In this document: piece after piece, positions 23,912-60,086 of the stretch
Layout of the letters: the number at the start of each line of letters is the position of its first letter
Position numbering within the stretch: the stretch's first letter is position 1
DNA from: a bacterium
Lineage (GTDB): Bacteria; Patescibacteriota; Minisyncoccia; Phycocordibacterales; UBA9973
Direction of reading: 5' to 3'
Assembly: GCA_027484965.1 (NCBI GenBank)
Contig: JAIXRY010000006.1
Coordinates: 1,738 to 65,737, forward strand
DNA length: 64,000 nt
The notes under the pieces: generated by a model
What the model saw: only the letters and a program-made list of their open reading frames with translations
The model's database searches: none
Told to the model about the DNA's origin: nothing
Translations under genes and position numbers: made by a program

Positions 23912-23984
23912 GGGCCGTTAGCTCATCTGGTAGAGCACATCATTTGCAATGATGGGGTGGCAGGTTCGAGTCCTGTACGGTCCA
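23912..23984 (+). tRNA. tRNA-Ala (anticodon UGC)
   Basis: Acceptor GGGCCGT/ACGGTCC with the G3:U70 alanine identity pair, anticodon stem CATCA/TGATG with loop TTTGCAA, T-loop TTCGAGT, discriminator A. It is followed by the terminator at 23993-24020. Confidence 0.85.
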
Positions 23985-23992
23985 CAAACAAA

Positions 23993-24020
23993 AAATCCAT
24001 CTCCTGATGGATTTTTTGTT
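23993..24020 (+). terminator. intrinsic terminator ATCCATCTCCTGATGGAT + T6
   Basis: Hairpin plus T-run directly 3' of tRNA-Ala. Confidence 0.7.
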
Positions 24021-24254
24021 TTCTATCGCTTTATTTAAAGCGATAGAAATTTGCTTTAGCAAATGTGGGCCGTAAGAATAGTCTGGGAGACTATTCGTCA
24101 GGACTCGAAGCCTGTTTGAGATATTTTTGGAATATATGAACAAAAATATCCAAACATGGATACTGATCCTGTAAGGATCGAGTCCTACAAAAATCTAAAG
24201 ACTTTTTACTATTTTTTTTGTTTTCTATTTTAAATATTGTTATAATATTAAAAT

Positions 24255-24635
24255 ATGCAAAATAAAAATACTATTATCGTTGGAATCGTTTGTCTCGTTA
24301 TTGGCTCTTTTGTGGGTTCTCAATTTTTTCCAAAAAACATGGAGCATACAATGAATGATGGTTCAAAAATGGCGGGCGATATGCACCATGAAATGTCTAT
24401 GGATACAATGATGCAAGATATGAAAAATTCTTTAAAAGGAAAACAAGGTGAAGAATTTGATAAAGAATTTCTAAAACAAATGATTGTTCATCATGAAGGT
24501 GCTGTGCTGATGGCTGAAGATGTTTTAATAAATTCAAAAAGACCAGAACTTGTTAATCTTGCAAATGATATAATCTCAGCTCAGAAAAAAGAGATAGAAA
24601 TGATGAAAACTTGGCAGAATAGTTGGTTTAAATAA
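24255..24635 (+). CDS. DUF305-family protein (membrane-anchored, His-rich; metal-stress associated family)
   Basis: N-terminal TM helix, then DMHHEMSMDTMMQDM and FLKQMIVHHEGAVLMAE, resembling DUF305 HH.GA..M motifs. Confidence 0.5.
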   Translation: MQNKNTIIVGIVCLVIGSFVGSQFFPKNMEHTMNDGSKMAGDMHHEMSMDTMMQDMKNSLKGKQGEEFDKEFLKQMIVHHEGAVLMAEDVLINSKRPELVNLANDIISAQKKEIEMMKTWQNSWFK

Positions 24636-24641
24636 TTTTTT

Positions 24642-24863
24642 ATGCATCACGACAAAAGAAATCGTTCGATAACAAAGGCTATAACTTACCGTATTATTAG
24701 TATCATGTTTGATAGTACTCTTGCTTTTTTGATTACTCAAAGTGCGGAAAAGACTTTTATTTTAGTTGTTATTTCTAATATTTTTAGTATATTTATGTAT
24801 TTTGCTCATGAAAGAGTATGGAACCGTATACCTTGGGGTAAACATAGTATTGATTGTAAATAG
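24642..24863 (+). CDS. small membrane protein (DUF2061-like)
   Basis: KAITYRIISIMFDSTLAFLI...HERVW pattern. Confidence 0.35.
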   Translation: MHHDKRNRSITKAITYRIISIMFDSTLAFLITQSAEKTFILVVISNIFSIFMYFAHERVWNRIPWGKHSIDCK

Positions 24864-27983: not shown

Positions 27984-27994
27984 GTCAAATAAAA

Positions 27995-28026
27995 GAGCGG
28001 GACCCTTCGGGTCCCGCTCTTTTATT
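27995..28026 (+). terminator. intrinsic terminator GAGCGGGACCCTTCGGGTCCCGCTC + T-run (paralog of 8951-8975 with compensatory substitutions)
   Basis: Same hairpin as after murJ, but with A->G and T->C changes on opposite stem sides that preserve pairing. Confidence 0.8.
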
Positions 28027-28079
28027 ATTAACCCTAATAATAATGACTATAAACTGATTTTAGTTTATACTGTATTTAT

Positions 28080-28517
28080 ATGAAGGTATATATCGCTTCA
28101 GACCATGCTGGATTTTCTCTGAAAGAAATACTAGTCCCGTTTATTTCATCTCTTGGATATTTAGTATCTGATCTTGGTCCTACAACATATAATGAAGATG
28201 ATGATTACCCATCTCTTGTGCGCCCTGTTGGGTCGCTTGTTTCTCATGAATCTGACGCTTTTGGTATTATTATTGGCGGATCTGGTGAAGGTGAGGCAAT
28301 GGTGGTAAATCACATGGAAGGTATTAGATGTGCTGAATATTATGGTGGAAGTCTCGATATTCCAAAGCTTGCACGTGAACACAATAATGCAAATATACTA
28401 TCTTTAGGAGCGCGTTTTGTAACAGAACATGAAGCAAAAGATGCTGTACAGATATTTTTGGAAACACCATTTTCTGGAGAAGAAAGACATAAGAGAAGAA
28501 TAGAAGAAATAGAATAA
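28080..28517 (+). CDS. rpiB: ribose-5-phosphate isomerase B
   Basis: MKVYIASDHAGFSLKE...GIIIGGSGEGEAMVVNHMEGIRCAEY is the RpiB/LacAB signature, including the catalytic Cys. Confidence 0.85.
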   Translation: MKVYIASDHAGFSLKEILVPFISSLGYLVSDLGPTTYNEDDDYPSLVRPVGSLVSHESDAFGIIIGGSGEGEAMVVNHMEGIRCAEYYGGSLDIPKLAREHNNANILSLGARFVTEHEAKDAVQIFLETPFSGEERHKRRIEEIE

Positions 28518-28518
28518 T

Positions 28519-28575
28519 ATGAAAGAAATAATTCCCGCAATAATGCCACGTAATTTTTTTTTTTTTTTTTAAAAG
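28519..28575 (+). other. upstream in-frame segment of the rpe-like gene (MKEIIPAIMPRNFFFFF) ending in TAA at the 3' edge of a T17 tract
   Basis: ATG at 28519 is in the same frame as ATG 28576. IIPAIMPRNF aligns with the RPE N-terminal motif IAPSILSADF. A T17 run (28554-28570) encodes FFFFF, and TAA lies at 28570-28572. Confidence 0.5.
28554..28570. repeat. homopolymeric T17 tract inside or adjacent to the rpe-like coding frame
   Basis: 17 consecutive T residues. Confidence 0.9.
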
Positions 28576-29202
28576 ATGTCACTAGTTGATGGCTTTGTTT
28601 CAACTGTGCAGATAGACCTCTGTGATGGTATTTATGTGCACACTAAGACCTGGCCATATCATCCTAAAGATGAAAATTCTTTGGAGATTATTTTTTCTGA
28701 AGAAGAAGGTATGCCTTTCTGGGAAACTCTTGATCTAGAGATTGATTGTATGGTCAAAAACCCTGCAAAAGAACTAGAGACTATTATAAGATTTGGTCCA
28801 AAGAGAATAGTCTTTCATTTAAAAAGTCTGGAAAATCCAAAAGAGTTTTTTGAAACTCTAGATCCATACATAAAAGAACAATGTGAAATTGGTCTTGCTA
28901 TAGTACCTGAAACAAATATTTCTGAAATAGAAAATCTTATTGAAGAAATTGATTTTATTCAATGTATGGGTATTGATGAAATAGGTTTTCAAGGTAATCC
29001 TTTTGATAAAAAAGTTTTAGATCAAGTAAGAGAAATAAAACAAAAATATCCTCACATGATAGTGAGTGTTGACGGCGCTGTTAATGAAAATACTATAGAA
29101 GAATTAAATAATGCCGGGGTAGATAGGTTTGTGATAGGATCTGCCATTTTTAACACAGAAAGCCCAGGATACACAGCTCAAAATTTTATCGACATGATAT
29201 AA
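28576..29202 (+). CDS. ribulose-phosphate 3-epimerase-like protein (divergent; canonical metal-binding His residues replaced)
   Basis: C-terminal SVDGAVN...AGVDRFVIGSAIF matches RPE EVDGGV...AGADMFVAGSAIF. IDLCDG and EIDCMV stand where RPE has H-x-D and H-L-M-V. Confidence 0.6.
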   Translation: MSLVDGFVSTVQIDLCDGIYVHTKTWPYHPKDENSLEIIFSEEEGMPFWETLDLEIDCMVKNPAKELETIIRFGPKRIVFHLKSLENPKEFFETLDPYIKEQCEIGLAIVPETNISEIENLIEEIDFIQCMGIDEIGFQGNPFDKKVLDQVREIKQKYPHMIVSVDGAVNENTIEELNNAGVDRFVIGSAIFNTESPGYTAQNFIDMI

Positions 29203-29209
29203 TTGCATC

Positions 29210-30067
29210 ATGGAACTCAATGATGAAAAAATTCTTGGACTAAGAGAAATCTCAAACAATATTCGTGAATCAATTGTAGAAATGCTTTTGTCTGCAGGAA
29301 GTGGGCACACAGCAGGACCTCTTGGAATGGCGGATGTTTTTACTATTTTATATTTTCATATTTTAAAACACGATCCAAAAAATATAGAATGGGAAGAACG
29401 CGATAGAGTGGTGCTCTCTAATGGTCATATTTGTCCTGTGTTATACGCAACAATGGCTCATGCAGGATATATGCCTGTATCAGAATTAAACACTCTCCGC
29501 AGATTTGGTAGTCGTCTGCAAGGACACCCTCATCGTGAATTCATGCCTTGGCTTGAAACAAGCTCTGGTCCGCTAGGTGAAGGTCTCTCTCAAGCTGTAG
29601 GAATGGCTATTGCTCTTCGTATAGACAATAAGAAGAATTTTACTTACTGTTTCTTGGGTGACGGTGAGCTCAATGAAGGGCAAAACTGGGAAGCGATAAT
29701 GCTTGCAGGAAAAGAAAGACTAGGGAAGCTTATAGTTTTCGTTGATCGTAACAATATTCAGATAGATGGTAATACAGAAGATATAATGCCACTCAATAGT
29801 CTTACTGCAAAATGGACTGCTTTCAACTGGCATGTTCAGGAAGTTGATGGACATAATTTTGAAATGATAAATGACGCTGTAGGTAAGGCTCATACAGTAC
29901 CAGAACAACCTTCTGTAATAATCTGCCGCACCATTCCCGGTAAAGGTGTTTTAGAATTCGAATATGATTATCACTGGCACGGCAAAGCTCCAAATAAAGA
30001 TGAAGCAAAGAAGGCTCTAGAAGAACTTCATACTTTAGGAGGTAAAATTAAAGCAGAACACCACTAG
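29210..30067 (+). CDS. transketolase, N-terminal (TPP-binding) subunit
   Basis: GSGHTAGPLGMADVF...WEERDRVVLSNGH...GDGELNEGQNWEA are transketolase N-domain motifs. 285 aa, so split-subunit architecture. Confidence 0.85.
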   Translation: MELNDEKILGLREISNNIRESIVEMLLSAGSGHTAGPLGMADVFTILYFHILKHDPKNIEWEERDRVVLSNGHICPVLYATMAHAGYMPVSELNTLRRFGSRLQGHPHREFMPWLETSSGPLGEGLSQAVGMAIALRIDNKKNFTYCFLGDGELNEGQNWEAIMLAGKERLGKLIVFVDRNNIQIDGNTEDIMPLNSLTAKWTAFNWHVQEVDGHNFEMINDAVGKAHTVPEQPSVIICRTIPGKGVLEFEYDYHWHGKAPNKDEAKKALEELHTLGGKIKAEHH

Positions 30068-30121
30068 GAGTAAAGTAGTTAGAAAATAGTAATTTAGTAT
30101 ATAGAAAATAAATACAAATGT

Positions 30122-30358
30122 ATGGAACATAATATAAAACCAGGACAACTATACAAACACTACAAAGGTGATACATATAAAATAATTACCCTTGCTAAAC
30201 ATTCAGAAACTGGAGATTGGCTCGTTGTATATGAAAGAATGACAGATTTTGTACATAATGGTGACTGGAAGATAAGAGCAAGACCTCTAGAATTATTTAC
30301 TGGAAAAGTAGAGATTGAAGGAAGAGAAATTCTAAGATTCGAATTTATTAGCGAATAA
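30122..30358 (+). CDS. DUF1653-like small protein (copy 1)
   Basis: MEHNIKPGQLYKHYKGDTYKII.LAKHSETGDWLVVYERM pattern; 78 aa. Confidence 0.5.
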   Translation: MEHNIKPGQLYKHYKGDTYKIITLAKHSETGDWLVVYERMTDFVHNGDWKIRARPLELFTGKVEIEGREILRFEFISE

Positions 30359-30367
30359 TAAATATAT

Positions 30368-30595
30368 ATGGACCATAATATAAAACCAGGACAATTATAC
30401 AAACACTTTAAAGGTGATACTATGAAAATTATTTGTATCGCCAAGGATTCTGAGACGTTAGAAGATATGGTTGTCTACGATCATATGGATACAGATGAGC
30501 GTGCAAATATTTGGGTTCGTAAAGTTTCGATGTTTTTGGAAACTATAGAGCGAGACGGAAAACAAATTAAAAGATTTGAACTTATTGAAGGGTAA
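30368..30595 (+). CDS. DUF1653-like small protein (copy 2, tandem paralog)
   Basis: MDHNIKPGQLYKHFKGDTMKIICIAKDSETLEDMVVYDHM; about 50% identical to copy 1; 75 aa. Confidence 0.5.
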   Translation: MDHNIKPGQLYKHFKGDTMKIICIAKDSETLEDMVVYDHMDTDERANIWVRKVSMFLETIERDGKQIKRFELIEG

Positions 30596-30596
30596 T

Positions 30597-31589
30597 ATGT
30601 TAAACAAAAATTTAAAATTAAATGAAAAAATGTTTGACCAAGATGTCGAGCAAATTCCTATTCGCCAAGGATTTGGGGAAGGTCTTCTAGAAGAGGGAAA
30701 ACACAATAAAGATATTGTTGCTCTTTGTGCTGACCTAACAGAATCTACAAAGATGAATTTGTTCGCTGAAGCCTTCCCAGATAGATTTGTGGAGATTGGA
30801 ATTGCAGAACAAAACCTCGCGTCTGTTGCTTCAGGAATGGCAGCAATAGGGAAGCTCCCTGTTATTTCTTCTTATGCAATGTTTTCTCCTGGACGTAATT
30901 GGGAACAAATTCGCACTACAATCTGCTACAACGATCGCCCTGTAATTATTGCAGGTTCTCATGCGGGGATATCGGTGGGCCCAGACGGAGGTACACATCA
31001 GGCAATAGAAGATATTGCAATTACACGCGTAATACCAAATATGATTGTTGTTTCTCCTTGTGATTCTATTGAAGCAAAGAAAGCTATACAAGCTCTTTTA
31101 AAAATTGGTAAGCCTGCATATATTCGACTTGCTCGTGAGAAGACACCTATTATGACTACACTTGAGACCCCTTTTGAATTAGGACAATCTCAAACTCTTT
31201 GGAAAGGAGAAAATCCAGAAGTCGCGATAATTGCAACAGGAGCTCTGGTCCACAAAGCACTTGTAGCAGCAAAGAAATTAGAAGAAATAGGAATATCTGT
31301 GAGTGTTACAAATCTTGCAACAATCAAGCCACTCGACGAAGAAAGTATCATTACTCTTGCAAAAGAATCTGGAGCGATTGTTACCGTAGAAGAGCATCAG
31401 ATTGCAGGAGGAATGGGGAGTGCTGTGGCAGAATGTCTCGCGCAGTATGCTCCTGTGCCTGTAGAATTTGTAGGAGTACGAGATTTATTTGGACAATCAG
31501 GGACACCCGATGAACTTATAGAATATTATGGAATGGGTATTTCTCATATAATGTCAGCAGTTAAGACTGTAATAGAGAGAAAAAAGTAA
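30597..31589 (+). CDS. transketolase, C-terminal (pyrimidine-binding plus C-terminal domain) subunit
   Basis: FGEGLLEEGKHNKDIVALCADLTESTKM...FVEIGIAEQNLASVASGMA motifs. The ORF-track start at 30576 overlaps the preceding gene; the Met at 30597 is more likely. The alternate-frame ORF 31199-31513 is an artefact. Confidence 0.85.
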   Translation: MLNKNLKLNEKMFDQDVEQIPIRQGFGEGLLEEGKHNKDIVALCADLTESTKMNLFAEAFPDRFVEIGIAEQNLASVASGMAAIGKLPVISSYAMFSPGRNWEQIRTTICYNDRPVIIAGSHAGISVGPDGGTHQAIEDIAITRVIPNMIVVSPCDSIEAKKAIQALLKIGKPAYIRLAREKTPIMTTLETPFELGQSQTLWKGENPEVAIIATGALVHKALVAAKKLEEIGISVSVTNLATIKPLDEESIITLAKESGAIVTVEEHQIAGGMGSAVAECLAQYAPVPVEFVGVRDLFGQSGTPDELIEYYGMGISHIMSAVKTVIERKK

Positions 31590-31594
31590 AATAA

Positions 31595-31620
31595 AAATCC
31601 GCCATTGGCGGATTTTTATT
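31595..31620. terminator. bidirectional terminator ATCCGCCATTGGCGGAT
   Basis: Hairpin flanked by an A-run and a T-run between convergent genes. Confidence 0.75.
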
Positions 31621-31622
31621 TT

Positions 31623-32633
31623 CTATATCTTTGTTAGTTTATATCCTTCAGGGAGATTTTTTAATTCAATTTCCATTTGATCCTTTTTAAGTAATCCTTC
31701 TTGCGCTCCTACATATTGTACAACAGAAGCAGAATTTATAGGTCCCCACATCAGCGCTTCTTCGAGTGTCTTACCTAGAGCAAGTGCGCAAGTTACTGTT
31801 GAAGCAAAAGCATCTCCAGCACCTGTACGTTCTACCGGAGCAGATTTATCTGGGTATATAGGTATTTGCCAGAGTGTATTTTCTTTGTATGCATACGCAC
31901 CATTTGGACCATCACTAATAACAACAATCTTTGGTCCAAGTTTTGAAAGTTCTTGTGAGAGTTTCAATACTTCAGCATCTTGCATGTCTAATATAGCGCG
32001 AGCCTCTTCAACATTACAGAAAAATACTTCAGTACGAGCATATAGTCTTGCAAGTTTTTCTTTACCAAGATTAATTTCATTTTTACCTGGTTGGAAGGCG
32101 AGTTTTATTTCAGGATTATTTTCTAGATATTCGGCAACAACATTATGAAAAGGAAAAGCAGTATTACTTACAGAACTAAAATACACCCACTTTGGTTTTC
32201 CAATACTTGGTAATTCGTAGGGATATTTTTCGTGTTTAATTAATATAGTTCTTTCTGTTTTATACCAGAGTACGTAGTGATAATTTGTTTTTATGCCTTT
32301 ATTGATTTTTACAAATTTTGTAGAAATATTCTCACTTTTTAGGTTATCAAGACAATCTTCTCCATATGTATCATCTCCAAGATTTGTTACTAGAGCTGTT
32401 TTCAATCCTAGACGCGCAGCAGAGACAGCAGCATTTGCAGCATTTCCTACAGCATTTAGTACATGTACTTCTTCATAAGGAATCTTGTCGGCAAAAGGAA
32501 TACAAATTTTGTAGTCTTCATGTCCTGCACTTCCTACTATATCCACACGGTCTTTATCTGTGAGTTTGATAAATGCGTCAATAACAGTATCTCCAATTGC
32601 TAAAAAATCATATTGTTTACTAAATAAATTCAT
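31623..32633 (-). CDS. PfkB-family carbohydrate kinase (ribokinase-like)
   Basis: FLAIGDTVIDAF N-terminal motif and C-terminal TGAGDAFASTV anion-hole motif. Confidence 0.75.
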   Translation of the reverse strand: MNLFSKQYDFLAIGDTVIDAFIKLTDKDRVDIVGSAGHEDYKICIPFADKIPYEEVHVLNAVGNAANAAVSAARLGLKTALVTNLGDDTYGEDCLDNLKSENISTKFVKINKGIKTNYHYVLWYKTERTILIKHEKYPYELPSIGKPKWVYFSSVSNTAFPFHNVVAEYLENNPEIKLAFQPGKNEINLGKEKLARLYARTEVFFCNVEEARAILDMQDAEVLKLSQELSKLGPKIVVISDGPNGAYAYKENTLWQIPIYPDKSAPVERTGAGDAFASTVTCALALGKTLEEALMWGPINSASVVQYVGAQEGLLKKDQMEIELKNLPEGYKLTKI

Positions 32634-32676
32634 AATGTTCTAATTTTATCTTTTATTATACTTACTATTGTAACAC

Positions 32677-33339
32677 ATGATATACTTTACTTATATGAAG
32701 CAATCAAGACTAGATTCACTTTCTGATGGTATTTTTTCTATTGTTATGACTATTTTGGTTTTCGAAATACACGTACCAGATTTTTTTGGTCGTATTTCAA
32801 ATCAAGATTTATTAATGACAATGATATCAATGTACCCATTGTTCTTAAGTTACTTGCTCTCATTTTTACTTTTGTTTACTTATTGGAGGAGTCATCATTA
32901 TATTGCTTCTGTCCTTGCAAAAAATATAGATATTCGTTTTAGTAATTTGAATGCATTATTTTTTATTTTCGTTTGTCTAATACCTTTCTCAGCTGCAACT
33001 CTCGGTAAATTTAGCTACACTCAAACATCCGTTATATTTTTTGCTGTGAATGTTATCTGTATTGGACTCTCATTATTTTGGATGAGAAAATATGTTCTCC
33101 TTTCTAATACTATTGAAAATACTCCTGTAACTGAAGTAGAGAATGAACATGCATATACAAGAATTCTTTTTCCTGTATTTGCGGCAATACTTGCTATCGT
33201 TATTAGTTTTTACAATATACAACTTTCTCTGTCATTATTTACTCTTGCTATATTTTTCAATTTATCTACAAGGAGTACAACATATACTTGGAAAATTTTA
33301 AATATATTTAGAAAAAAACAGAACGCTAATTTATTATAA
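32677..33339 (+). CDS. DUF1211 / TMEM175-like putative K+ channel family membrane protein
   Basis: RLDSLSDGIFSIVMTILVFEI matches the RxxxFSDGxFAIAxTLLVLE signature helix; multiple TM helices. Confidence 0.6.
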   Translation: MIYFTYMKQSRLDSLSDGIFSIVMTILVFEIHVPDFFGRISNQDLLMTMISMYPLFLSYLLSFLLLFTYWRSHHYIASVLAKNIDIRFSNLNALFFIFVCLIPFSAATLGKFSYTQTSVIFFAVNVICIGLSLFWMRKYVLLSNTIENTPVTEVENEHAYTRILFPVFAAILAIVISFYNIQLSLSLFTLAIFFNLSTRSTTYTWKILNIFRKKQNANLL

Positions 33340-33343
33340 TTAT

Positions 33344-34213
33344 ATGGAACAAAAAATAAAAACATTAAGAGAATATATAGAAGAAGCAAAAACACAAGGG
33401 AGAGCTGTGGGACATTTTAATATTTCAAATCTGGAAGCATTTCACGGGATAGTAAACGCAGCGACAAAACTCAATCTCCCTGTAATTATTGGAGTTTCGG
33501 AAGGAGAAGAAGCTTTTGTTGGTAGAGATGAAATTTTTGCTCTTGTAAAAGCAATGAAAGAACAAGGAAAACCCGTATTTCTTAATGCAGATCATCACTA
33601 TACTTTCGATAGTGTAAAAGCTTGTATTGATAGAGGTTTTGATTCTGTAATTGTTGATGGTGCAGCTCTTTCTTTTGAAGAAAACGTTGCTCTTGCTAAG
33701 AAGTGTGTGGAATATGCAAGAAATTGTGGGCGCGATGTTGTTGTAGAAGGTGAGCTTGGATATATTGGTCAATCTTCAAAAATACTAGAAGGTGTTCCAG
33801 AAGGAGTACTTTTAGATAGTCTTACAACAGCAAAAGATGCAAAAAGATTTGTGGAAGAAACAGGTGTAGATATGCTTGCTCCAGCTGTGGGTAATATTCA
33901 TGGAATGTTTAAAGGAGGAGTTGATCCAAGATTAAATATTGAGAGAATTAAAGAGATTAGTGATGCTGTAGGAATACCTCTAGTGCTTCATGGAGGATCA
34001 GGAAATGAAGCTGATTTTGCTGAAGCTATCAAAGCTGGTATGGCAATTGTGCATATCAATACCGAGATTCGTGTTGCATATAAAGAAGCTTTAGAAGAAA
34101 GTCTTGAAGCTCATCCTGAAGAAGTTGCACCTTATAAAATTCTCAAACCAACAGTTGAAGCTGTAGAAGAAAAAGTTATTGAGAAATTAAAATTGTTTAA
34201 TAATATTGATTAG
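33344..34213 (+). CDS. fba: class II fructose-bisphosphate aldolase
   Basis: AVGHFNISNLE...LNADHHYT...VIVDGAALSFEEN...NIHGMFKGG...LVLHGGSG are class II FBA/tagatose-bisphosphate aldolase motifs. Confidence 0.8.
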   Translation: MEQKIKTLREYIEEAKTQGRAVGHFNISNLEAFHGIVNAATKLNLPVIIGVSEGEEAFVGRDEIFALVKAMKEQGKPVFLNADHHYTFDSVKACIDRGFDSVIVDGAALSFEENVALAKKCVEYARNCGRDVVVEGELGYIGQSSKILEGVPEGVLLDSLTTAKDAKRFVEETGVDMLAPAVGNIHGMFKGGVDPRLNIERIKEISDAVGIPLVLHGGSGNEADFAEAIKAGMAIVHINTEIRVAYKEALEESLEAHPEEVAPYKILKPTVEAVEEKVIEKLKLFNNID

Positions 34214-34312
34214 CATAAAAAGCCCTACAAGAGGGTCTTTTTTATTAATCACAATAACAATTCCCACAAAACAAGACTATATTAACAAGCTATAATTTAG
34301 TATGATGTATAT

Positions 34313-35980
34313 ATGGAAATCATTGAACAAATAAAAAATATAATAGAGGGAGATGTAGATATTAGCAATGAGACTTTAACAAAATATTCTCATGATGCGA
34401 GTATCTTTGAAGTTAGACCAGAAATTGTTGTTTATCCAAAACATTCAAAAGATGTTCAAGCTCTAGTAAGATTTGTTCAAGAGCGTAAGCCTGGTATGGC
34501 TAAGCTTTCTATTACAATGCGTGCGGCTGGTACATGTATGTCTGGTGGAGCCATCAATGAATCAATCATTATGGATACTACTCGCTATATGAATAATGTT
34601 GTTTCTATTGAAAACAATGTTGCTATTGTTGAGCCTGGGTGCTTCTACAGAGACTTTGAAAAAGTTGTAGCAGAAAAAGGTCTCTTTATGCCCGCATACA
34701 CTGCTTCAAAAGAATTGTGTGCTGTTGGTGGAATGGTGGGTAATAATGCTGGTGGTGAAAAGTCTATTTCTCACGGAAAAGTTGAAAATTGGATAAAAGA
34801 ATTGAAAGTAGTATTCCGTGATGGATATGAATATACAATAAGACCTATTTCCAAAAAAGAACTATATGCAAAAATTGCTGAACCAGGACTTGAAAGTGAG
34901 TTGTATAGAGAAATGTATAAAATCATTACAGAAAATACTGCCCTCATAAAAGCTGGGAAGCCTCTAGTTTCAAAGAATTCTGCTGGATATTATCTTTGGA
35001 ATATATATGATGAAAATACAGAGATGTTCGACCTTTGTCGTCTCATAGTTGGGTCACAAGGAACACTTGGGGTGGTAACACAAATTAGTTTTAAATTAAT
35101 TCCAATACCAAAACAATCACAACTTCTTGTAATGTTTTTGCCTGACATAAAAAGATTGGGCGAACTTGTAGATATAATACTTCCTTTTGGTCCTGAAAGT
35201 ATTGAGTCTTATGATGACTATAGTTTGAAGCTTGCAATAAAGTTTTTTCCAGATTTTATGCGCACTATGAAGTTTTGGGATTTCATAAAGATGGGAATTT
35301 CTTTTATTCCTGAAGGATTTATGTTGCTTCAAAAAGGACTTCCAAAATTAGTTATGATTGTGGAGTGTGTGGGTGATAATCAAGAAGAACTTGATGAAAA
35401 GATGTCTAAACTCATCCGCGCGGTAGAACCTTTTGGTTATAAAACACGTTTAGCAAAAACAAAAGAACAGAGTGAAAAATATTGGCGTGTCCGTAGAGAG
35501 AGTTTCAATATGCTCCGCAAGCATATAAAAGGTAAGCATACAGCACCATTCATAGATGATATATGTGTTCTTCCAGAATATCTTCCTGAATTTTTGCCAA
35601 AACTTACTAATATCTTAGATGGTTATGGTTTTGTGTATACAATTGCAGGGCATGCAGGAAATGGAAATTTCCATATCATACCTTTGATGGATTTCTCTGA
35701 TCCAAAAACAAAAGATATTATTCTTGAGGTTTCTGATAAAGTGTATGATCTTGTAATTGGGTATCATGGGACGATTACAGCTGAACATAATGATGGTATC
35801 GTAAGAACTCCGTATCTGGAAAAGATGTACGGAAAAGAAATATATAATCTTTTTATTCAAACAAAGAAATTGTTCGACCCTCTCAACATATTCAATCCAG
35901 GTAAGAAAGTGGGGGGCACAAAAGAATATCTTGCAAATCATTTGTTGATAGAAAAACACGATAAAACTCATGTTTCATAA
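34313..35980 (+). CDS. FAD-linked oxidase (PCMH-type FAD-binding domain; GlcD/D-lactate dehydrogenase-like)
   Basis: VVYPKHSKDVQALVRFV...RAAGTCMSGGAI FAD-binding motif plus a C-terminal oxidase domain. Confidence 0.7.
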   Translation: MEIIEQIKNIIEGDVDISNETLTKYSHDASIFEVRPEIVVYPKHSKDVQALVRFVQERKPGMAKLSITMRAAGTCMSGGAINESIIMDTTRYMNNVVSIENNVAIVEPGCFYRDFEKVVAEKGLFMPAYTASKELCAVGGMVGNNAGGEKSISHGKVENWIKELKVVFRDGYEYTIRPISKKELYAKIAEPGLESELYREMYKIITENTALIKAGKPLVSKNSAGYYLWNIYDENTEMFDLCRLIVGSQGTLGVVTQISFKLIPIPKQSQLLVMFLPDIKRLGELVDIILPFGPESIESYDDYSLKLAIKFFPDFMRTMKFWDFIKMGISFIPEGFMLLQKGLPKLVMIVECVGDNQEELDEKMSKLIRAVEPFGYKTRLAKTKEQSEKYWRVRRESFNMLRKHIKGKHTAPFIDDICVLPEYLPEFLPKLTNILDGYGFVYTIAGHAGNGNFHIIPLMDFSDPKTKDIILEVSDKVYDLVIGYHGTITAEHNDGIVRTPYLEKMYGKEIYNLFIQTKKLFDPLNIFNPGKKVGGTKEYLANHLLIEKHDKTHVS

Positions 35981-36023
35981 GGGTTTTGTTGCCTAAAAAA
36001 CTTTTTTGTGTTACTATTCTTGA

Positions 36024-36656
36024 ATGCAAATATTAACCGCAACAAAACGAAGTAAGACAGACAAGATGGGAGATGTTCGTAACCAAGGACTCGTACCAGC
36101 TGTTATCTATGGCGCACGTGTGGAAAACACTCCAATCGCCATAAATAGTCGCGATTTTATAAAATTATTCAAAATAGCAGGTGAATCAAGTGCTATTGTT
36201 ATCGATCTTGAAGGAAAGAAAATTGACGCTCTTGTACAAGAAGTACAATATGAAGCAGTAAAAGGATACCCTTTACACGTAGACTTCCTAGCAATTGATG
36301 CAAGTAAACCTGTAACTGTTTCTGTAGCACTTACATTTGAAGGTGTGTCACCTGCAGTAAAAGGAAATCTTGGGTCACTTGTAAAAGTTATTCACGAAGT
36401 AGAAGTTAGTGCTCTTCCAAAAAATCTTCCTCATGAAATAGTTGTTTCTATCGAAAAACTAGTAACTCTTGAAGATCAAATTCATGTTTCAGATATAATT
36501 CTTCCAAAAGATGTGACAATGGAAACTGATGGAGAAGAAGTTGTAGCTCTCGTGGCTCCACAACAAGAAGAAAAAGAATCAGAACCTCTAGATATCTCTT
36601 CAATTGAAGTTGAAAAGAAAGGTAAAAAAGAGGAAGAAGAAGTTTCAGCGGAATAA
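36024..36656 (+). CDS. rplY: 50S ribosomal protein L25 / general stress protein Ctc
   Basis: RNQGLVPAVIYGARVENTPIAINSRDF signature and an acidic C-terminal tail. Confidence 0.8.
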   Translation: MQILTATKRSKTDKMGDVRNQGLVPAVIYGARVENTPIAINSRDFIKLFKIAGESSAIVIDLEGKKIDALVQEVQYEAVKGYPLHVDFLAIDASKPVTVSVALTFEGVSPAVKGNLGSLVKVIHEVEVSALPKNLPHEIVVSIEKLVTLEDQIHVSDIILPKDVTMETDGEEVVALVAPQQEEKESEPLDISSIEVEKKGKKEEEEVSAE

Positions 36657-36697
36657 TATAATATCTATACATATTCACAAAAAACCACCCCAAGAGG

Positions 36698-38068
36698 GTG
36701 GTTTTTTGTGGTATACTTATAAGACATATGTTTATTAAACGTTTTTTTATTTTTTCACTAATTCTTTCAATGTTCTTAGGAAGTATTGGTGTAATTTATG
36801 CGCAAACATCAGAAGATGAACGTGCCAAGTTGTACGCAGAACTTGATGCTTTACAAAAAGAAATTGTCCAAAAAGAAGCACAATTAAATGAGCAAAGAAA
36901 ACAAACAGGGACTATAAAAAAGGATGTAGATTTGCTTACAAATCAGATTAATTTAGCCAAAACAAAAATTAAATCAAAAAATCTATTAATTAATAAATTA
37001 TCAAAAGATATTAATAGCAGAACAAAAACTATCAATATTCTTGAAGATAAGCTTGATATTTCAAAAGATTCTCTTGCTCAACTTCTTAAAAAAACCAATG
37101 ATTTGAGTCAGGAAAATGTTGTGTATATGCTTCTTTCTAATGACAGTGTTTCTGGGTTTTATCAAGATCTAGATTCCTTTGCTTCATTAAAGAAGTCTGT
37201 TAAATCTAGTGTAGATAATATAAAAATTATTAAATATGACAATGAAGAGCAAAAGAAAAATTTAGAAAAAAATAAAGAAGATGAACTTGACGCTCGTGAT
37301 GTTATAGATAATCAGAAAAAAGTTGTAGAAAAAACAGAAAAAGAGAAAAAAACTTTACTTCAAATTAGTAAAAATAAAGAAGCTGAGTATCAAAAAGTTC
37401 TAGCAGAAAGACAAAAACGTGTTACAGAAATAAAAAACGCACTATTTAGATTTGCTGGTGGAAATACAAAAGCAATACCTTTTGACGAAGCTTTAATGTA
37501 TGCAGAAAAAGCTTCTGAAAAAACTGGTGTTAGGACTGCTTTTATCCTTGCAATTTTAACTCAAGAATCTAATCTTGGTAAAAATGTGGGAACGTGTAAT
37601 AGATCTACAGATCCTGCTTCTAAAAGTTGGAAGGTTGTTATGCATCCAACAAGAGATCAGCCAGCTTTCTTGAGAATTACAGAGAAGTTAGGACTTAATC
37701 CTGAAACTACACCTATCTCTTGTCCTGCTCCTGGTGGTGGTTGGGGTGGAGCTGTTGGGCCGGCGCAGTTCATTCCTTCTACTTGGGAGTCTGTAAGTTC
37801 TGAAGTCTCAAATCTTTTAGGTGTGTCATATGCAAATCCTTGGAGAGCGGAGGATGCTATAATGGCTTCTGCTACTTATCTTAAAAGAAGAGGTGCTGTA
37901 GGTGGTAATACAGCAGAAAGAAATGCTGCTTGTAGATATTATTCAGGTAGGCCTTGTGATAATAAAAGACCAGCAAATACTTTTTATGGTAATTCTGTTA
38001 TTTCTATTTCAAAAAGAATACAAGGGGACATTGACTATCTAAAACAATATGGTGTTTCAAGAAGGTAG
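36698..38068 (+). CDS. secreted coiled-coil protein with a C-terminal lytic-transglycosylase-like domain
   Basis: Signal/TM region, 200 aa of heptad-rich coiled coil, then TQESNLG...GPAQFIPSTW, resembling the SLT catalytic Glu-Ser and GLMQ motifs. Confidence 0.5.
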   Translation: MVFCGILIRHMFIKRFFIFSLILSMFLGSIGVIYAQTSEDERAKLYAELDALQKEIVQKEAQLNEQRKQTGTIKKDVDLLTNQINLAKTKIKSKNLLINKLSKDINSRTKTINILEDKLDISKDSLAQLLKKTNDLSQENVVYMLLSNDSVSGFYQDLDSFASLKKSVKSSVDNIKIIKYDNEEQKKNLEKNKEDELDARDVIDNQKKVVEKTEKEKKTLLQISKNKEAEYQKVLAERQKRVTEIKNALFRFAGGNTKAIPFDEALMYAEKASEKTGVRTAFILAILTQESNLGKNVGTCNRSTDPASKSWKVVMHPTRDQPAFLRITEKLGLNPETTPISCPAPGGGWGGAVGPAQFIPSTWESVSSEVSNLLGVSYANPWRAEDAIMASATYLKRRGAVGGNTAERNAACRYYSGRPCDNKRPANTFYGNSVISISKRIQGDIDYLKQYGVSRR

Positions 38069-38111
38069 TTATATTGATAATTTATATTAAATATGATACA
38101 ATTTTTTAGTT

Positions 38112-38366
38112 ATGAAGAAAGATATACACCCAAAAAACAACCGATACGTTATCTTTGAAGATAATTCAAACGGAGCTCAATTTTTGGTGCTCTCTACGGT
38201 AAATACAAAAGAGACAGCAAAATGGACAGATGGTAAAGAATACCCACTTTTCCGCGTTGAAATTTCAAGTGCCTCACACCCATTCTTTACAGGAACTGAG
38301 AAAGTTCTTGATACTGCTGGACGTGTTGACCGTTTCAAAAAGCGTGCATCACTTGCAGGTAAATAA
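38112..38366 (+). CDS. rpmE: 50S ribosomal protein L31
   Basis: MKKDIHPKN...HPFFTG signature. Confidence 0.85.
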
Positions 38367-38427
38367 ATTAATTTAAAACAAAAGTCGCTTTGTAGAGCGA
38401 TTTTTTGTTTGCTACAATAAATACATT

Positions 38428-39402
38428 ATGGAAATAGATTTTGATTTAGAAGCAGTTAAAAAAGACCATAAGACCTCTTATTTTGGAGGGCTTCTTCAGT
38501 CTGTTTTGTATAAGATTGAAGAAACTAAAATTCTTTCAGAAGATGAATCTTTAAAGGAATTAGCTGAAGAGGATTTAAAAAATCTTGAAATAGAAAAAGA
38601 GGGACTTGTTGCTCAGATTAAAACTATTTTGGAATCAGAAAAAGAAGAAGAAGAATTTCCAAATGAGGTTGTTTTTGAAATCCGCGCTGGAGCAGGAGGA
38701 GACGAAGCTTCACTCTTTGCTGGTGAGCTCGTAGAAATGTATAAAGGCTACGCTGTAACTCGTAAGTGGCAATGGACAACACTTGAGACATCTCTTTCTT
38801 CAGCTGGTGGGTATAAAGAAGCTTCTTTTGAAATTAAAGGTAAAGATGTCTATAAAACTCTCCGCTTCGAGACTGGAGTTCATCGTGTTCAACGTATTCC
38901 TCAGACTGAGAAGAATGGTCGTGTTCACACTTCTACTGTAACAGTTGCTGTGCTTCCTATTCGTACTAAAAGTACTTTTGTTATTAATCCTTCAGATTTA
39001 GAAATTGAATATTCTCGTTCTGGTGGCGCTGGAGGACAAAATGTTAACAAGGTTGAAACAGCCGTACGTCTCATTCACGTTCCTACAGGAATAGATGTGC
39101 GCTGTACATCAGAGAGAAGTCAGTTAAAGAATCGTGAAAGAGCTATGTCTATTTTGCTTTCAAAACTACAACTCAAAAAAGATGAAGAAGAAGCAAAAAA
39201 ATATGAAGGCGAACGTCGTGATCAAATTGGGACAGGGGATAGAAGTGAAAAAATTCGCACATATAACTTTCCTCAAGACAGAATTACTGATCATCGTATT
39301 AAACAATCATGGTCAAATTTGCCAGGTATAATGCTTGGTAATATCCAGAAAATTATTGACGCTCTCCAGTCTGGAACAGTGGGTGACTCAGATGATGAAT
39401 AA
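38428..39402 (+). CDS. prfA: peptide chain release factor 1
   Basis: GGQ motif ([18 protein letters not shown]) and PQT tripeptide in the codon-recognition position (the RF1 PxT type, not SPF). Confidence 0.8.
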
Positions 39403-60056: not shown

Positions 60057-60086
60057 CCCACGTCTCACGACGTGGGATTTTTTTTT
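60057..60086 (+). terminator. intrinsic terminator CCCACGTCTCACGACGTGGG + T9
   Basis: Perfect 7-bp GC-rich stem and a 9-T run; the stem is paralogous to 60561-60579. Confidence 0.75.

What the first reader, a model, noticed from the sequence alone, without database searches (positions are those of the whole stretch)
28519..28600. rpe-like gene interrupted by an in-frame TAA at the edge of a T17 homopolymer; catalytic His ligands replaced
Seen in sequence. ATG 28519 (1 nt after the rpiB stop) opens MKEIIPAIMPRNF, which matches the RPE N-terminal strand (IAPSILSADF). A 17-T run follows, encoding FFFFF, then TAA (28570-28572). Then, in the same frame, K-M-SLVDGFVSTVQIDLCDG... continues with exactly the spacing expected before the first RPE metal-binding motif. 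So the N-terminus and body are one reading frame broken only by a stop created at the T/A homopolymer boundary. A single A->T at 28571 would make an 18-T tract and repair the gene. Length changes of the T run would not restore the frame: every slipped frame hits a stop within 6 codons. In addition, the residues aligned with RPE His32 and His65 are Ile/Gln and Asp (IDLCDG, EIDCMV), while the two Asp ligands are kept. Interpretations: a sequencing error at a homopolymer; a recent pseudogenisation of an already divergent (possibly non-catalytic) RPE paralog; or a hypermutable contingency tract switching expression of a short versus full-length product. The gene sits in an otherwise intact rpiB / tkt-N / tkt-C pentose-phosphate cluster.
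Basis: partly seen in the sequence, partly recalled or inferred. Interest (0 to 1): 0.55.

Follow-up and report, generated by a model that had tools for sequence, protein, structure and literature searches.

The report
Probable assembly artefact breaking an rpe gene
The stop codon and 17-T run that split this pentose-phosphate gene occur only in this one deposited assembly, because four independent assemblies of the same bacterial population read a normal, intact gene there, so the break is most likely a sequence-record error, while the unusual active-site residues are a normal trait of the whole gene family.

Summary
ATG 28519 opens MKEIIPAIMPRNFFFFF, T17 spans 28554-28570, an in-frame TAA sits at 28570-72, and the same frame continues to 29202.

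Logan assemblies of four sequencing runs cover 57,086 bp of the window. Outside a strain-variable island next to a tRNA gene, they differ from it at only two places. One is a T9/T8 terminator tail. The other is nine positions within 28559-28584. Eight of those nine turn the native ATGATTTGAAAG (codons YDLKE) into T, with no length change.

The intact 227-aa protein is recorded only in Logan (5 contigs). The 208-aa truncated product is recorded only in the NCBI record (1 contig). All 12 close relatives and 75 species-level Paceibacteria genomes lack the tract. No T-run length from 14 to 21 opens the frame.

I conclude the break is a record-level artefact (about 0.75) or, less likely, a very recent private null allele (about 0.2). 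It is not a contingency tract, a recoding site or an old pseudogene.

The His-to-Gln and His-to-Asp replacements are real. They are invariant in the 130 closest homologues, within a family of about 1,000 clusters, and the gene sits in a conserved rpiB-rpe-tktN-tktC operon. They are a lineage trait, not decay.

The parts
28080..28517 (+). rpiB (ribose-5-phosphate isomerase B), 145 aa, intact
   Evidence: Pfam PF02502 at 2e-39. The exact protein is on record in both NCBI and Logan.
28519..29202 (+). Full rpe-like reading frame (227 codons), interrupted at codon 18 in this record
   Evidence: Pfam PF00834 at 4e-24. Apart from 9 bases, the frame is identical to the intact 227-aa allele P0122.
28519..28572 (+). 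17-codon N-terminal fragment MKEIIPAIMPRNFFFFF plus TAA. It carries strand beta1 (residues 3-8).
   Evidence: The AF2 model of the intact allele places beta1 at residues 3-8 and helix alpha1 at 13-23.
28554..28570 (+). T17 homopolymer, made of the native T5 (28554-28558) plus 12 further positions that read T
28559..28570 (+). The overwritten stretch. Independent assemblies read ATGATTTGAAAG here. Eight of the 12 positions differ (28559, 61, 62, 66-70), all to T, with no indel.
   Evidence: L004, L005 and L006 compared with the window. L001-L003 and L013 carry the same native bases.
28570..28572 (+). In-frame TAA, created by G-to-T at 28570 (native GAA, Glu18)
28584..28584 (+). Ninth private difference, CTA here against CTT (both Leu22) in every other assembly, 14 nt after the tract
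28576..29202 (+). 208-aa ORF from the internal Met20. This is the product annotated in the NCBI record (P0127).
   Evidence: It would lack beta1 and most of alpha1.
28609..28617 (+). Codons Gln31-Ile32-Asp33, which align to human RPE His35-Leu36-Asp37
   Evidence: Gln31 and Asp33 are invariant in 130 of 130 homologues.
28738..28746 (+). Codons Glu74-Ile75-Asp76. Asp76 aligns to human RPE His70.
   Evidence: Glu74 and Asp76 are invariant in 130 of 130 homologues.
28960..28962 (+). Codon Gln148 on strand beta6, which switches together with position 31 (Gln/Gln or His/His) across the family
29071..29073 (+). Codon Asp185, which aligns to human RPE Asp175
29210..30067 (+). Transketolase N-terminal subunit, 285 aa
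   Evidence: Pfam PF00456 at 1e-65.
30597..31589 (+). Transketolase C-terminal subunit (330 aa as called in the Logan contigs; the longest ORF starts at TTG 30576)
   Evidence: Pfam PF02779 and PF02780.

Best explanation
The locus is the normal ribulose-5-phosphate 3-epimerase gene of a Paceibacteria (candidate phyla radiation) bacterium, second gene of a conserved rpiB-rpe-tktN-tktC operon.

In this one deposited metagenome-assembled genome, twelve consecutive bases (28559-28570, natively ATGATTTGAAAG, codons 14-18 YDLKE) read as T. They fuse with the native T5 to form T17 and turn GAA into TAA. One more base, 14 nt downstream, is also private to this record.

The most likely cause is an error in the sequence record. 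Possible routes are a low-quality or low-coverage stretch carried into the consensus, a local misassembly or polishing error, or masked bases rendered as T. On this reading the organism has an intact 227-aa gene.

What is shown:
- The lesion is private to this record.
- It is a length-preserving overwrite.
- The gene is otherwise identical to an intact allele.
- The family is under purifying selection.

What is inferred: that the cause is technical rather than a mutation.

The Gln31 and Asp76 replacements of the two canonical His metal ligands are a native, conserved trait of this clade's enzyme. Its operon position implies that it still interconverts ribulose-5-P and xylulose-5-P. I infer that it does so with a harder metal such as Mg2+ or Mn2+, or with a rearranged metal site.
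For: (1) Logan assemblies from four runs (SRR30952543, -584, -591, -592) cover 57,086 of the 64,000 bp. Outside an island next to a tRNA gene, they differ from the window only at 28559-28584 (9 mismatches) and at a T9/T8 terminator tail.

(2) Eight of the nine mismatches are A or G changed to T within 12 nt, with no indel, and they create the T17 and the TAA.

(3) Exact-sequence look-ups show that the window's RpiB and TktN are on record in both NCBI (contig of 238,858 bp) and Logan. The 208-aa product is in NCBI only (1 contig), and the intact 227-aa P0122 is in Logan only (5 contigs).

(4) All 12 other members of the 90% cluster read NFYDLKEKM. Across 75 species-level genomes the longest homopolymer in the first 105 nt is 4 to 8, and 74 of the 75 show no internal stop in the tblastn match; the exception is L085, a partial match near a contig end.

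(5) T17 is unique in the window, where the next-longest run is 9, and no A or T run elsewhere could have served as a template.

(6) Close relatives show 2 synonymous and 0 non-synonymous changes in codons 1-19, and 29-43 synonymous against 10-16 non-synonymous changes in the rest of the gene.

(7) The lesion falls at the start of helix alpha1 of a confidently modelled (beta/alpha)8 barrel (pLDDT 94.9) that matches RPE and AlsE structures at TM about 0.8.
Against: - No raw reads could be inspected, so a real variant fixed in the sample behind this MAG is not excluded.
- The MAG is a slightly different genotype from the Logan contigs. It has a different island after tRNA-Ala and a T9 where they have T8. 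Private real differences are therefore possible.
- I cannot name the technical route that would write twelve T's of exactly the right length.
- I could not show that the MAG comes from the same runs as the Logan contigs.
Confidence: 0.75

Rival explanations
1. The tract is a real, very recent, private complex mutation, meaning a multi-nucleotide substitution in one sub-strain. It makes a null or severely crippled rpe allele. The products would be a 17-aa peptide plus, at best, a 208-aa protein restarted at Met20 that lacks strand beta1 and helix alpha1.
For: The MAG differs from the Logan genotype at an island after tRNA-Ala and at a T8/T9 tract, so it is not the identical clone. The deposited record carries the lesion, and its annotation calls the 208-aa product.
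Against: - Eight clustered changes, all to T, with length preserved and a ninth change 14 nt away, stand against zero ordinary SNPs in about 56 kb.
- No known bacterial mutational process does this. Slippage changes tract length, and no template tract exists in the window.
- The gene body shows no relaxation of selection, being identical to the intact allele apart from one synonymous base.
- The gene is conserved in the operon of 75 related species.
Confidence: 0.2
2. The tract is a hypermutable contingency (phase-variation) tract, or a transcriptional or translational recoding site, that switches between a short and a full-length product.
For: A 17-nt homopolymer inside a coding frame is the classical substrate for slippage by DNA or RNA polymerases (established knowledge).
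Against: - No T-run length from 14 to 21 opens the frame. In-register lengths keep the TAA, and the other lengths reach a stop after 4 or 6 sense codons.
- The tract is absent from every relative at every distance.
- The variation seen is substitution, not length.
- TAA is the commonest stop codon of this genome, closing 28 of 39 long ORFs.
- There is no hairpin or terminator-like structure at the site.
Confidence: 0.02
3. The gene is an old, decaying, non-catalytic RPE paralogue, and the loss of the His ligands and the stop codon are two steps of the same degradation.
For: Both canonical His ligands are replaced. The protein scores far below NCBIfam's rpe cut-offs, at 90.5 bits against 212.6.
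Against: - Gln31, Asp76 and Gln148 are invariant in the 130 closest homologues and present in 122 of 149 family representatives.
- Both catalytic Asp residues, Met78, Met150 and the phosphate-binding loops are conserved.
- The operon position between rpiB and tkt is conserved.
- Synonymous changes outnumber non-synonymous ones.
- The lesion is absent from the same strain in other assemblies.
Confidence: 0.02

Closest known systems
Ribulose-5-phosphate 3-epimerase (RPE; Pfam PF00834; e.g. human RPE, PDB 3ovp, and S. pyogenes RPE, PDB 2fli)
   Same: It has the same (beta/alpha)8 fold, at TM 0.78-0.82, and passes the Pfam gathering score. It keeps the two catalytic, metal-binding Asp residues (Asp33, Asp185), two of the three cushion Met residues (Met78, Met150), His100 and the C-terminal phosphate-binding loops. 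It sits between rpiB and transketolase.
   Different: Both His metal ligands are replaced, His35 by Gln31 and His70 by Asp76, and Met39 is replaced by Cys35. An extra conserved Gln148 lies on strand beta6 and covaries with position 31. An insertion of roughly 5-10 residues lies between beta2 and beta3. Scores are below the NCBIfam rpe cut-offs, so NCBI names family members 'hypothetical protein'.
D-allulose-6-phosphate 3-epimerase AlsE (PDB 3ct7)
   Same: It is the best structural match (E 1.9e-15, TM 0.78/0.81) and the only solved structure whose sequence alignment reaches the N-terminal strand (query residues 4-212).
   Different: Identity is 26%. The protein scores 91.5 bits against the 271-bit NCBIfam cut-off. 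The operon context is pentose-phosphate, not allose catabolism.
Local consensus or assembly errors in metagenome-assembled genomes
   Same: The lesion is a private, tightly clustered, length-preserving set of base differences at a low-complexity AT-rich site, in one assembly only, and it breaks a conserved gene.
   Different: The exact technical route is not identified, and the reads could not be examined.
Homopolymer contingency loci (phase-variable genes of Neisseria, Haemophilus, Campylobacter and Mycoplasma)
   Same: A long homopolymer lies inside the 5' part of a coding frame.
   Different: Tract length does not control the frame. The tract is absent from all relatives, and the variation is by substitution.

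Membership tests
RPE family (Pfam PF00834) | Score above Pfam's gathering threshold | tested here: met
   85.6 bits against a cut-off of 21.1. The match covers only profile positions 56-198.
RPE family (Pfam PF00834) | (beta/alpha)8 barrel superposable on solved RPE structures | tested here: met
   The AF2 model has pLDDT 94.9 and pTM 0.92. Foldseek gives TM 0.78-0.82 to 3ct7, 3ovp, 2fli and 4nu7.
Canonical rpe equivalog (NCBIfam TIGR01163 / NF004076) | Score above the curated cut-off | tested here: not met
   90.5 bits against 212.6, and 94.6 against 165, for the intact allele P0122. Relatives P0058 and P0078 score 91-118 bits.
Canonical rpe equivalog | Metal site made of His-x-Asp (beta2), His (beta3) and Asp (beta7) | tested here: not met
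   The site reads Gln31-x-Asp33, Asp76 and Asp185. Both His are replaced and both Asp are kept.
Canonical rpe equivalog | Catalytic acid/base Asp pair and the Met cushion | tested here: met
   Asp33, Asp185, Met78 and Met150 are invariant in 130 of 130 homologues. Met39 is Cys35 in 115 and Met in 14.
Canonical rpe equivalog | Pentose-phosphate genomic context | tested here: met
   rpiB lies upstream in 73 of 75 loci, tktN downstream in 69 of 75 and tktC downstream in 63 of 75.
Canonical rpe equivalog | Ru5P to Xu5P epimerase activity and its metal dependence | not testable with these tools
   This needs a purified enzyme.
Homopolymer contingency locus | Tract length changes switch the reading frame on and off | tested here: not met
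   T14 to T21 all end in a stop.
Homopolymer contingency locus | The tract is present and variable in length among strains or relatives | tested here: not met
   The tract is absent in 12 of 12 cluster members, in 4 same-population assemblies and in 75 species-level loci.
Programmed stop-codon readthrough or reassignment | The stop is conserved in orthologues, and the codon is not used as an ordinary terminator | tested here: not met
   Orthologues have GAA (Glu) at this position. TAA ends 28 of 39 long ORFs.
Pseudogene | A disabling lesion in the record | tested here: met
   In-frame TAA at codon 18.
Pseudogene | The lesion is real in the organism's DNA | not testable with these tools
   The reads are not available. 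Independent assemblies of the same population lack the lesion.
Pseudogene | Signs of relaxed selection elsewhere in the gene | tested here: not met
   Codons 20-227 differ from the intact allele by one synonymous base.

The most novel reading that the evidence does not exclude
Leaving the break aside, the gene belongs to a large Paceibacteria clade of ribulose-phosphate 3-epimerases, about 1,000 clusters at 50% identity. In this clade the two canonical His metal ligands have been replaced by Gln31 and Asp76, and a new conserved Gln148 on strand beta6 switches together with position 31 (His/His in one subclade, Gln/Gln in the other). If these enzymes are active, a central pentose-phosphate enzyme works here with a carboxylate/amide site, meaning a different metal (Mg2+ or Mn2+) or none, instead of the Fe2+/Zn2+ site of every characterised RPE. 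I did not find this described in the papers searched, but the search was shallow.
Probability: 0.45. Interest if true: 0.45.

Novelty: not a real feature. Interest (0 to 1): 0.15.

Why it matters
For the headline finding, the practical value is a correction. One deposited MAG carries a 12-base overwrite that truncates its rpe annotation to 208 aa. A metabolic reconstruction could wrongly score this organism as lacking a working non-oxidative pentose-phosphate branch.

The case also shows that a striking homopolymer-plus-stop pattern can be settled without reads, by comparing independent assemblies of the same population.

The side result may be worth a biochemical test. RPE is the textbook example of an Fe2+ enzyme that is vulnerable to oxidants, and a natural clade without His ligands would show how the same chemistry can run on a different metal site.

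Tried and rejected
- Exact look-ups of the 208-aa product returned 'not on record', although the cluster table does list it as NCBI-only.
- A wildcard DNA pattern covering both the T17 and the native variant found nothing in GTDB representative genomes or in JGI metagenome contigs. The window's genome is therefore not in those collections, and the original record could not be read.
- A literature search for the run accessions returned one irrelevant hit. Searches on CPR plus 3-epimerase, and on the RPE ligand residue names, returned nothing about a His-less RPE.
- I looked for a terminator or RNA structure that would give the U-run a function. There was none, with a folding z-score of 0.70.
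- I considered template switching or gene conversion from another tract. No other run longer than 9 exists in the window.
- I considered a diversity-generating retroelement. I rejected it because G positions as well as A positions changed, and all of them changed to T.
- I considered masked N bases rendered as T by a 2-bit style conversion. This would fit the preserved length, but it is untestable here and does not explain position 28584.
- I could not check for a second, canonical rpe elsewhere in the genome, because only the 64-kb window is held.

Full report
**1. The observation**

- rpiB ends with TAA at 28515-28517.
- After one base, ATG 28519 opens MKEIIPAIMPRNFFFFF.
- The run of T spans 28554-28570 (17 T).
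- TAA sits in frame at 28570-28572.
- The same frame continues with K-M(28576)-SLVDGFVSTVQIDLCDG and ends at the stop at 29200-29202.

T17 is an extreme outlier. T-run counts fall 496, 247, 120, 37, 8 and 1 for lengths 4 to 9, and nothing else in the 64 kb exceeds 9.

**2. What the gene is**

The 208-aa ORF matches Pfam PF00834, the ribulose-phosphate 3-epimerase family, at 4e-24. Its neighbours are rpiB (PF02502) and a split transketolase (PF00456; PF02779 plus PF02780).

A sequence search returned about 200 homologues. The listed ones run about 223-247 aa and align with the query from its first residues. The closest cluster has 13 members. Twelve are 227 aa and read MKEIIPAIMPRNFYDLKEKMSLVDG. 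The thirteenth, P0127, is the window's own 208-aa product, found in NCBI on a contig of 238,858 bp.

An AlphaFold2 model of the intact allele P0122 is confident (pLDDT 94.9, pTM 0.92). It is a (beta/alpha)8 barrel with strand beta1 at residues 3-8 and helix alpha1 at 13-23. Its best matches among solved structures are AlsE (3ct7) and human RPE (3ovp), at TM about 0.8. The lesion, at residues 14-18, falls at the start of alpha1. A product restarted at Met20 would lack beta1 and most of alpha1.

**3. The decisive comparison**

P0122 has the same body as the window's protein, with an intact N-terminus. It is encoded on Logan contigs from runs SRR30952543, -584, -591 and -592.

Locus L004 aligns to window 27993-39202, which is 11,210 bp, with no gap and nine mismatches. 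All nine lie at 28559-28584.
- Eight of them (28559, 61, 62 and 66-70) convert the native ATGATTTGAAAG to T.
- The ninth is CTA against CTT (Leu22) at 28584.
- More distant relatives, at 87-90% nucleotide identity, also read TAT GAT TTG AAA GAA and CTT.

I extended the comparison with further Logan contigs until 57,086 of the 64,000 bp were covered. The only other differences were these:
- A T9 that is T8 in four Logan contigs, at 60078-60086, in the U-tail of a terminator hairpin.
- A strain-variable island that begins exactly at the 3' end of tRNA-Ala(TGC), which spans 23912-23985.

Exact-sequence look-ups show that the window's RpiB and TktN are on record in both NCBI and Logan. The 208-aa product is in NCBI only (1 contig), and the intact 227-aa protein is in Logan only (5 contigs).

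**4. Interpretation of the break**

The lesion is a length-preserving overwrite of twelve bases by T. It is private to one deposited assembly of a population whose other assemblies are otherwise base-for-base identical.

Ordinary mutation does not produce eight clustered changes to one base with zero SNPs in the surrounding 56 kb or so. Slippage changes tract length. The window contains no A or T tract that could have served as a template.

The gene shows no sign of relaxed selection. Codons 20-227 differ from the intact allele by one synonymous base. Between close relatives, synonymous changes outnumber non-synonymous ones: 2 to 0 in codons 1-19, and 29-43 to 10-16 in the rest.

I therefore rank a record-level artefact first, at about 0.75. 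Possible routes are a low-quality or low-coverage stretch carried into the consensus, a local misassembly or polishing error, or masked bases rendered as T.

A real, very recent private null allele comes second, at about 0.2. I keep it alive because the MAG is not the identical genotype (it has a different island, and T9 where the others have T8), and because the reads could not be inspected.

A contingency tract or a recoding site is contradicted by four results.
- No tract length opens the frame.
- The tract is absent from 12 cluster members and from 75 species-level genomes, where the longest homopolymer in the first 105 nt is 4-8.
- TAA is the usual terminator, closing 28 of 39 long ORFs.
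- There is no RNA structure or terminator at the site.

**5. The His replacements**

The alignment to human RPE pairs these residues: Gln31 with His35, Asp33 with Asp37, Cys35 with Met39, Asp76 with His70, Met78 with Met72, Met150 with Met141 and Asp185 with Asp175. The human residue numbering and the ligand roles come from my own knowledge of the hRPE structures 3ovp, 3ovq and 3ovr.

Among the 130 closest homologues, Gln31, Asp33, Glu74, Asp76, Met78, His100, Gln148, Met150 and Asp185 are invariant.

A profile search of 1.84 billion representative proteins finds 1,033 at E <= 1e-30. Of the 149 top hits examined, 122 carry the same nine-residue signature. A few keep His at position 31, at position 76 or at both.

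Among 75 GTDB representative genomes (Paceibacteria, Nomurabacteria and relatives) there are two covarying types:
- Gln31 with Gln148, in about 54 loci.
- His31 with His148, in 19 loci.

Both types have Asp76.

The gene order rpiB, rpe-like, tktN, tktC holds in 73, 69 and 63 of the 75 loci respectively.

The replacements are therefore a conserved lineage trait of the enzyme that occupies the rpe slot, not decay. Positions 31, 76 and 148 each lie two residues before a barrel-facing catalytic or cushion residue. I infer that they share one interior layer of the barrel. That would fit a rebuilt metal site or hydrogen-bond site rich in carboxylate and amide groups, which would favour Mg2+ or Mn2+, or no metal at all. 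This last point is inference and was not tested.

**6. Relation to known families**

- The protein passes Pfam's RPE threshold and has the RPE fold.
- It fails the curated NCBIfam rpe cut-offs, at 90.5 bits against 212.6 and 94.6 against 165.
- It lacks the defining His pair.
- NCBI names the family members 'hypothetical protein', and JGI names them RPE.
- It works like an RPE by context and by its retained catalytic Asp pair. Its activity and metal dependence are untested.

**7. Verdict**

The headline feature, an interrupted gene at a hypermutable tract, is most likely not a biological feature. If it is real, it is an ordinary private null allele. Interest is low, at 0.15.

The most novel reading still open is the His-less active site of the whole clade. 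I give it a probability of about 0.45 of reflecting a real change in metal use, with moderate interest if true.

Noticed in passing
window 60078-60086: The second-longest homopolymer of the window (T9) forms the U-tail of a terminator hairpin (CCCACGTC-TCAC-GACGTGGG). It is T8 in all four independent Logan contigs (L091-L094). It is the only other point-like difference in 57 kb, and it also lengthens a T run in this record.
   Followed up: partly
window 23912-24673; L007 9820-14100: A strain-variable island starts exactly at the 3' end of tRNA-Ala(TGC), which spans 23912-23985. Where the window has 229 bp (23986-24214), the Logan contigs carry about 3.8 kb. That stretch encodes a pilin-like N_methyl protein (245 aa), a Peptidase_S74-domain protein (699 aa) and a 146-aa ORF. 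The next gene (24255-24635, DUF305/DUF4142, 126 aa) is a diverged allele, with 38 nucleotide and 12 amino-acid differences. Identity returns to 100% after 24673.
   Followed up: partly
window 28609-28611 and 28960-28962; loci L013-L087: In the RPE-like family, position 31 (human RPE His35) and position 148 (human Leu139, strand beta6) switch together. They are Gln/Gln in about 54 genomes and His/His in 19 of the 75 GTDB representatives. Position 76 (human His70) is Asp in both types. A few representatives keep His76.
   Followed up: partly
window 30122-30595: Two tandem DUF1653 genes (78 and 75 aa) lie between the N- and C-terminal transketolase subunit genes. A DUF1653 homologue was found near the rpe gene in only 4 of 75 related loci; in three of them (L013, L014, L017) it lies between the two tkt halves, and in L081 it lies downstream of tktC.
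   Followed up: no
window 27990-28023: A perfect palindromic terminator, AAAAGAGCGGGACCC-TTCG-GGGTCCCGCTCTTTT, follows the DEAD-box helicase gene. All three fetched Logan contigs of this region (L004-L006) end at 27991-27993, inside it. This is probably a de Bruijn graph break rather than biology.
   Followed up: no
protein family level (P0058, P0078, P0095, P0100): NCBI names members of this rpe-like family 'hypothetical protein' because they score 90-118 bits against NCBIfam rpe cut-offs of 165-212. Pathway reconstructions based on NCBI names would therefore miss rpe across Paceibacteria.
   Followed up: partly
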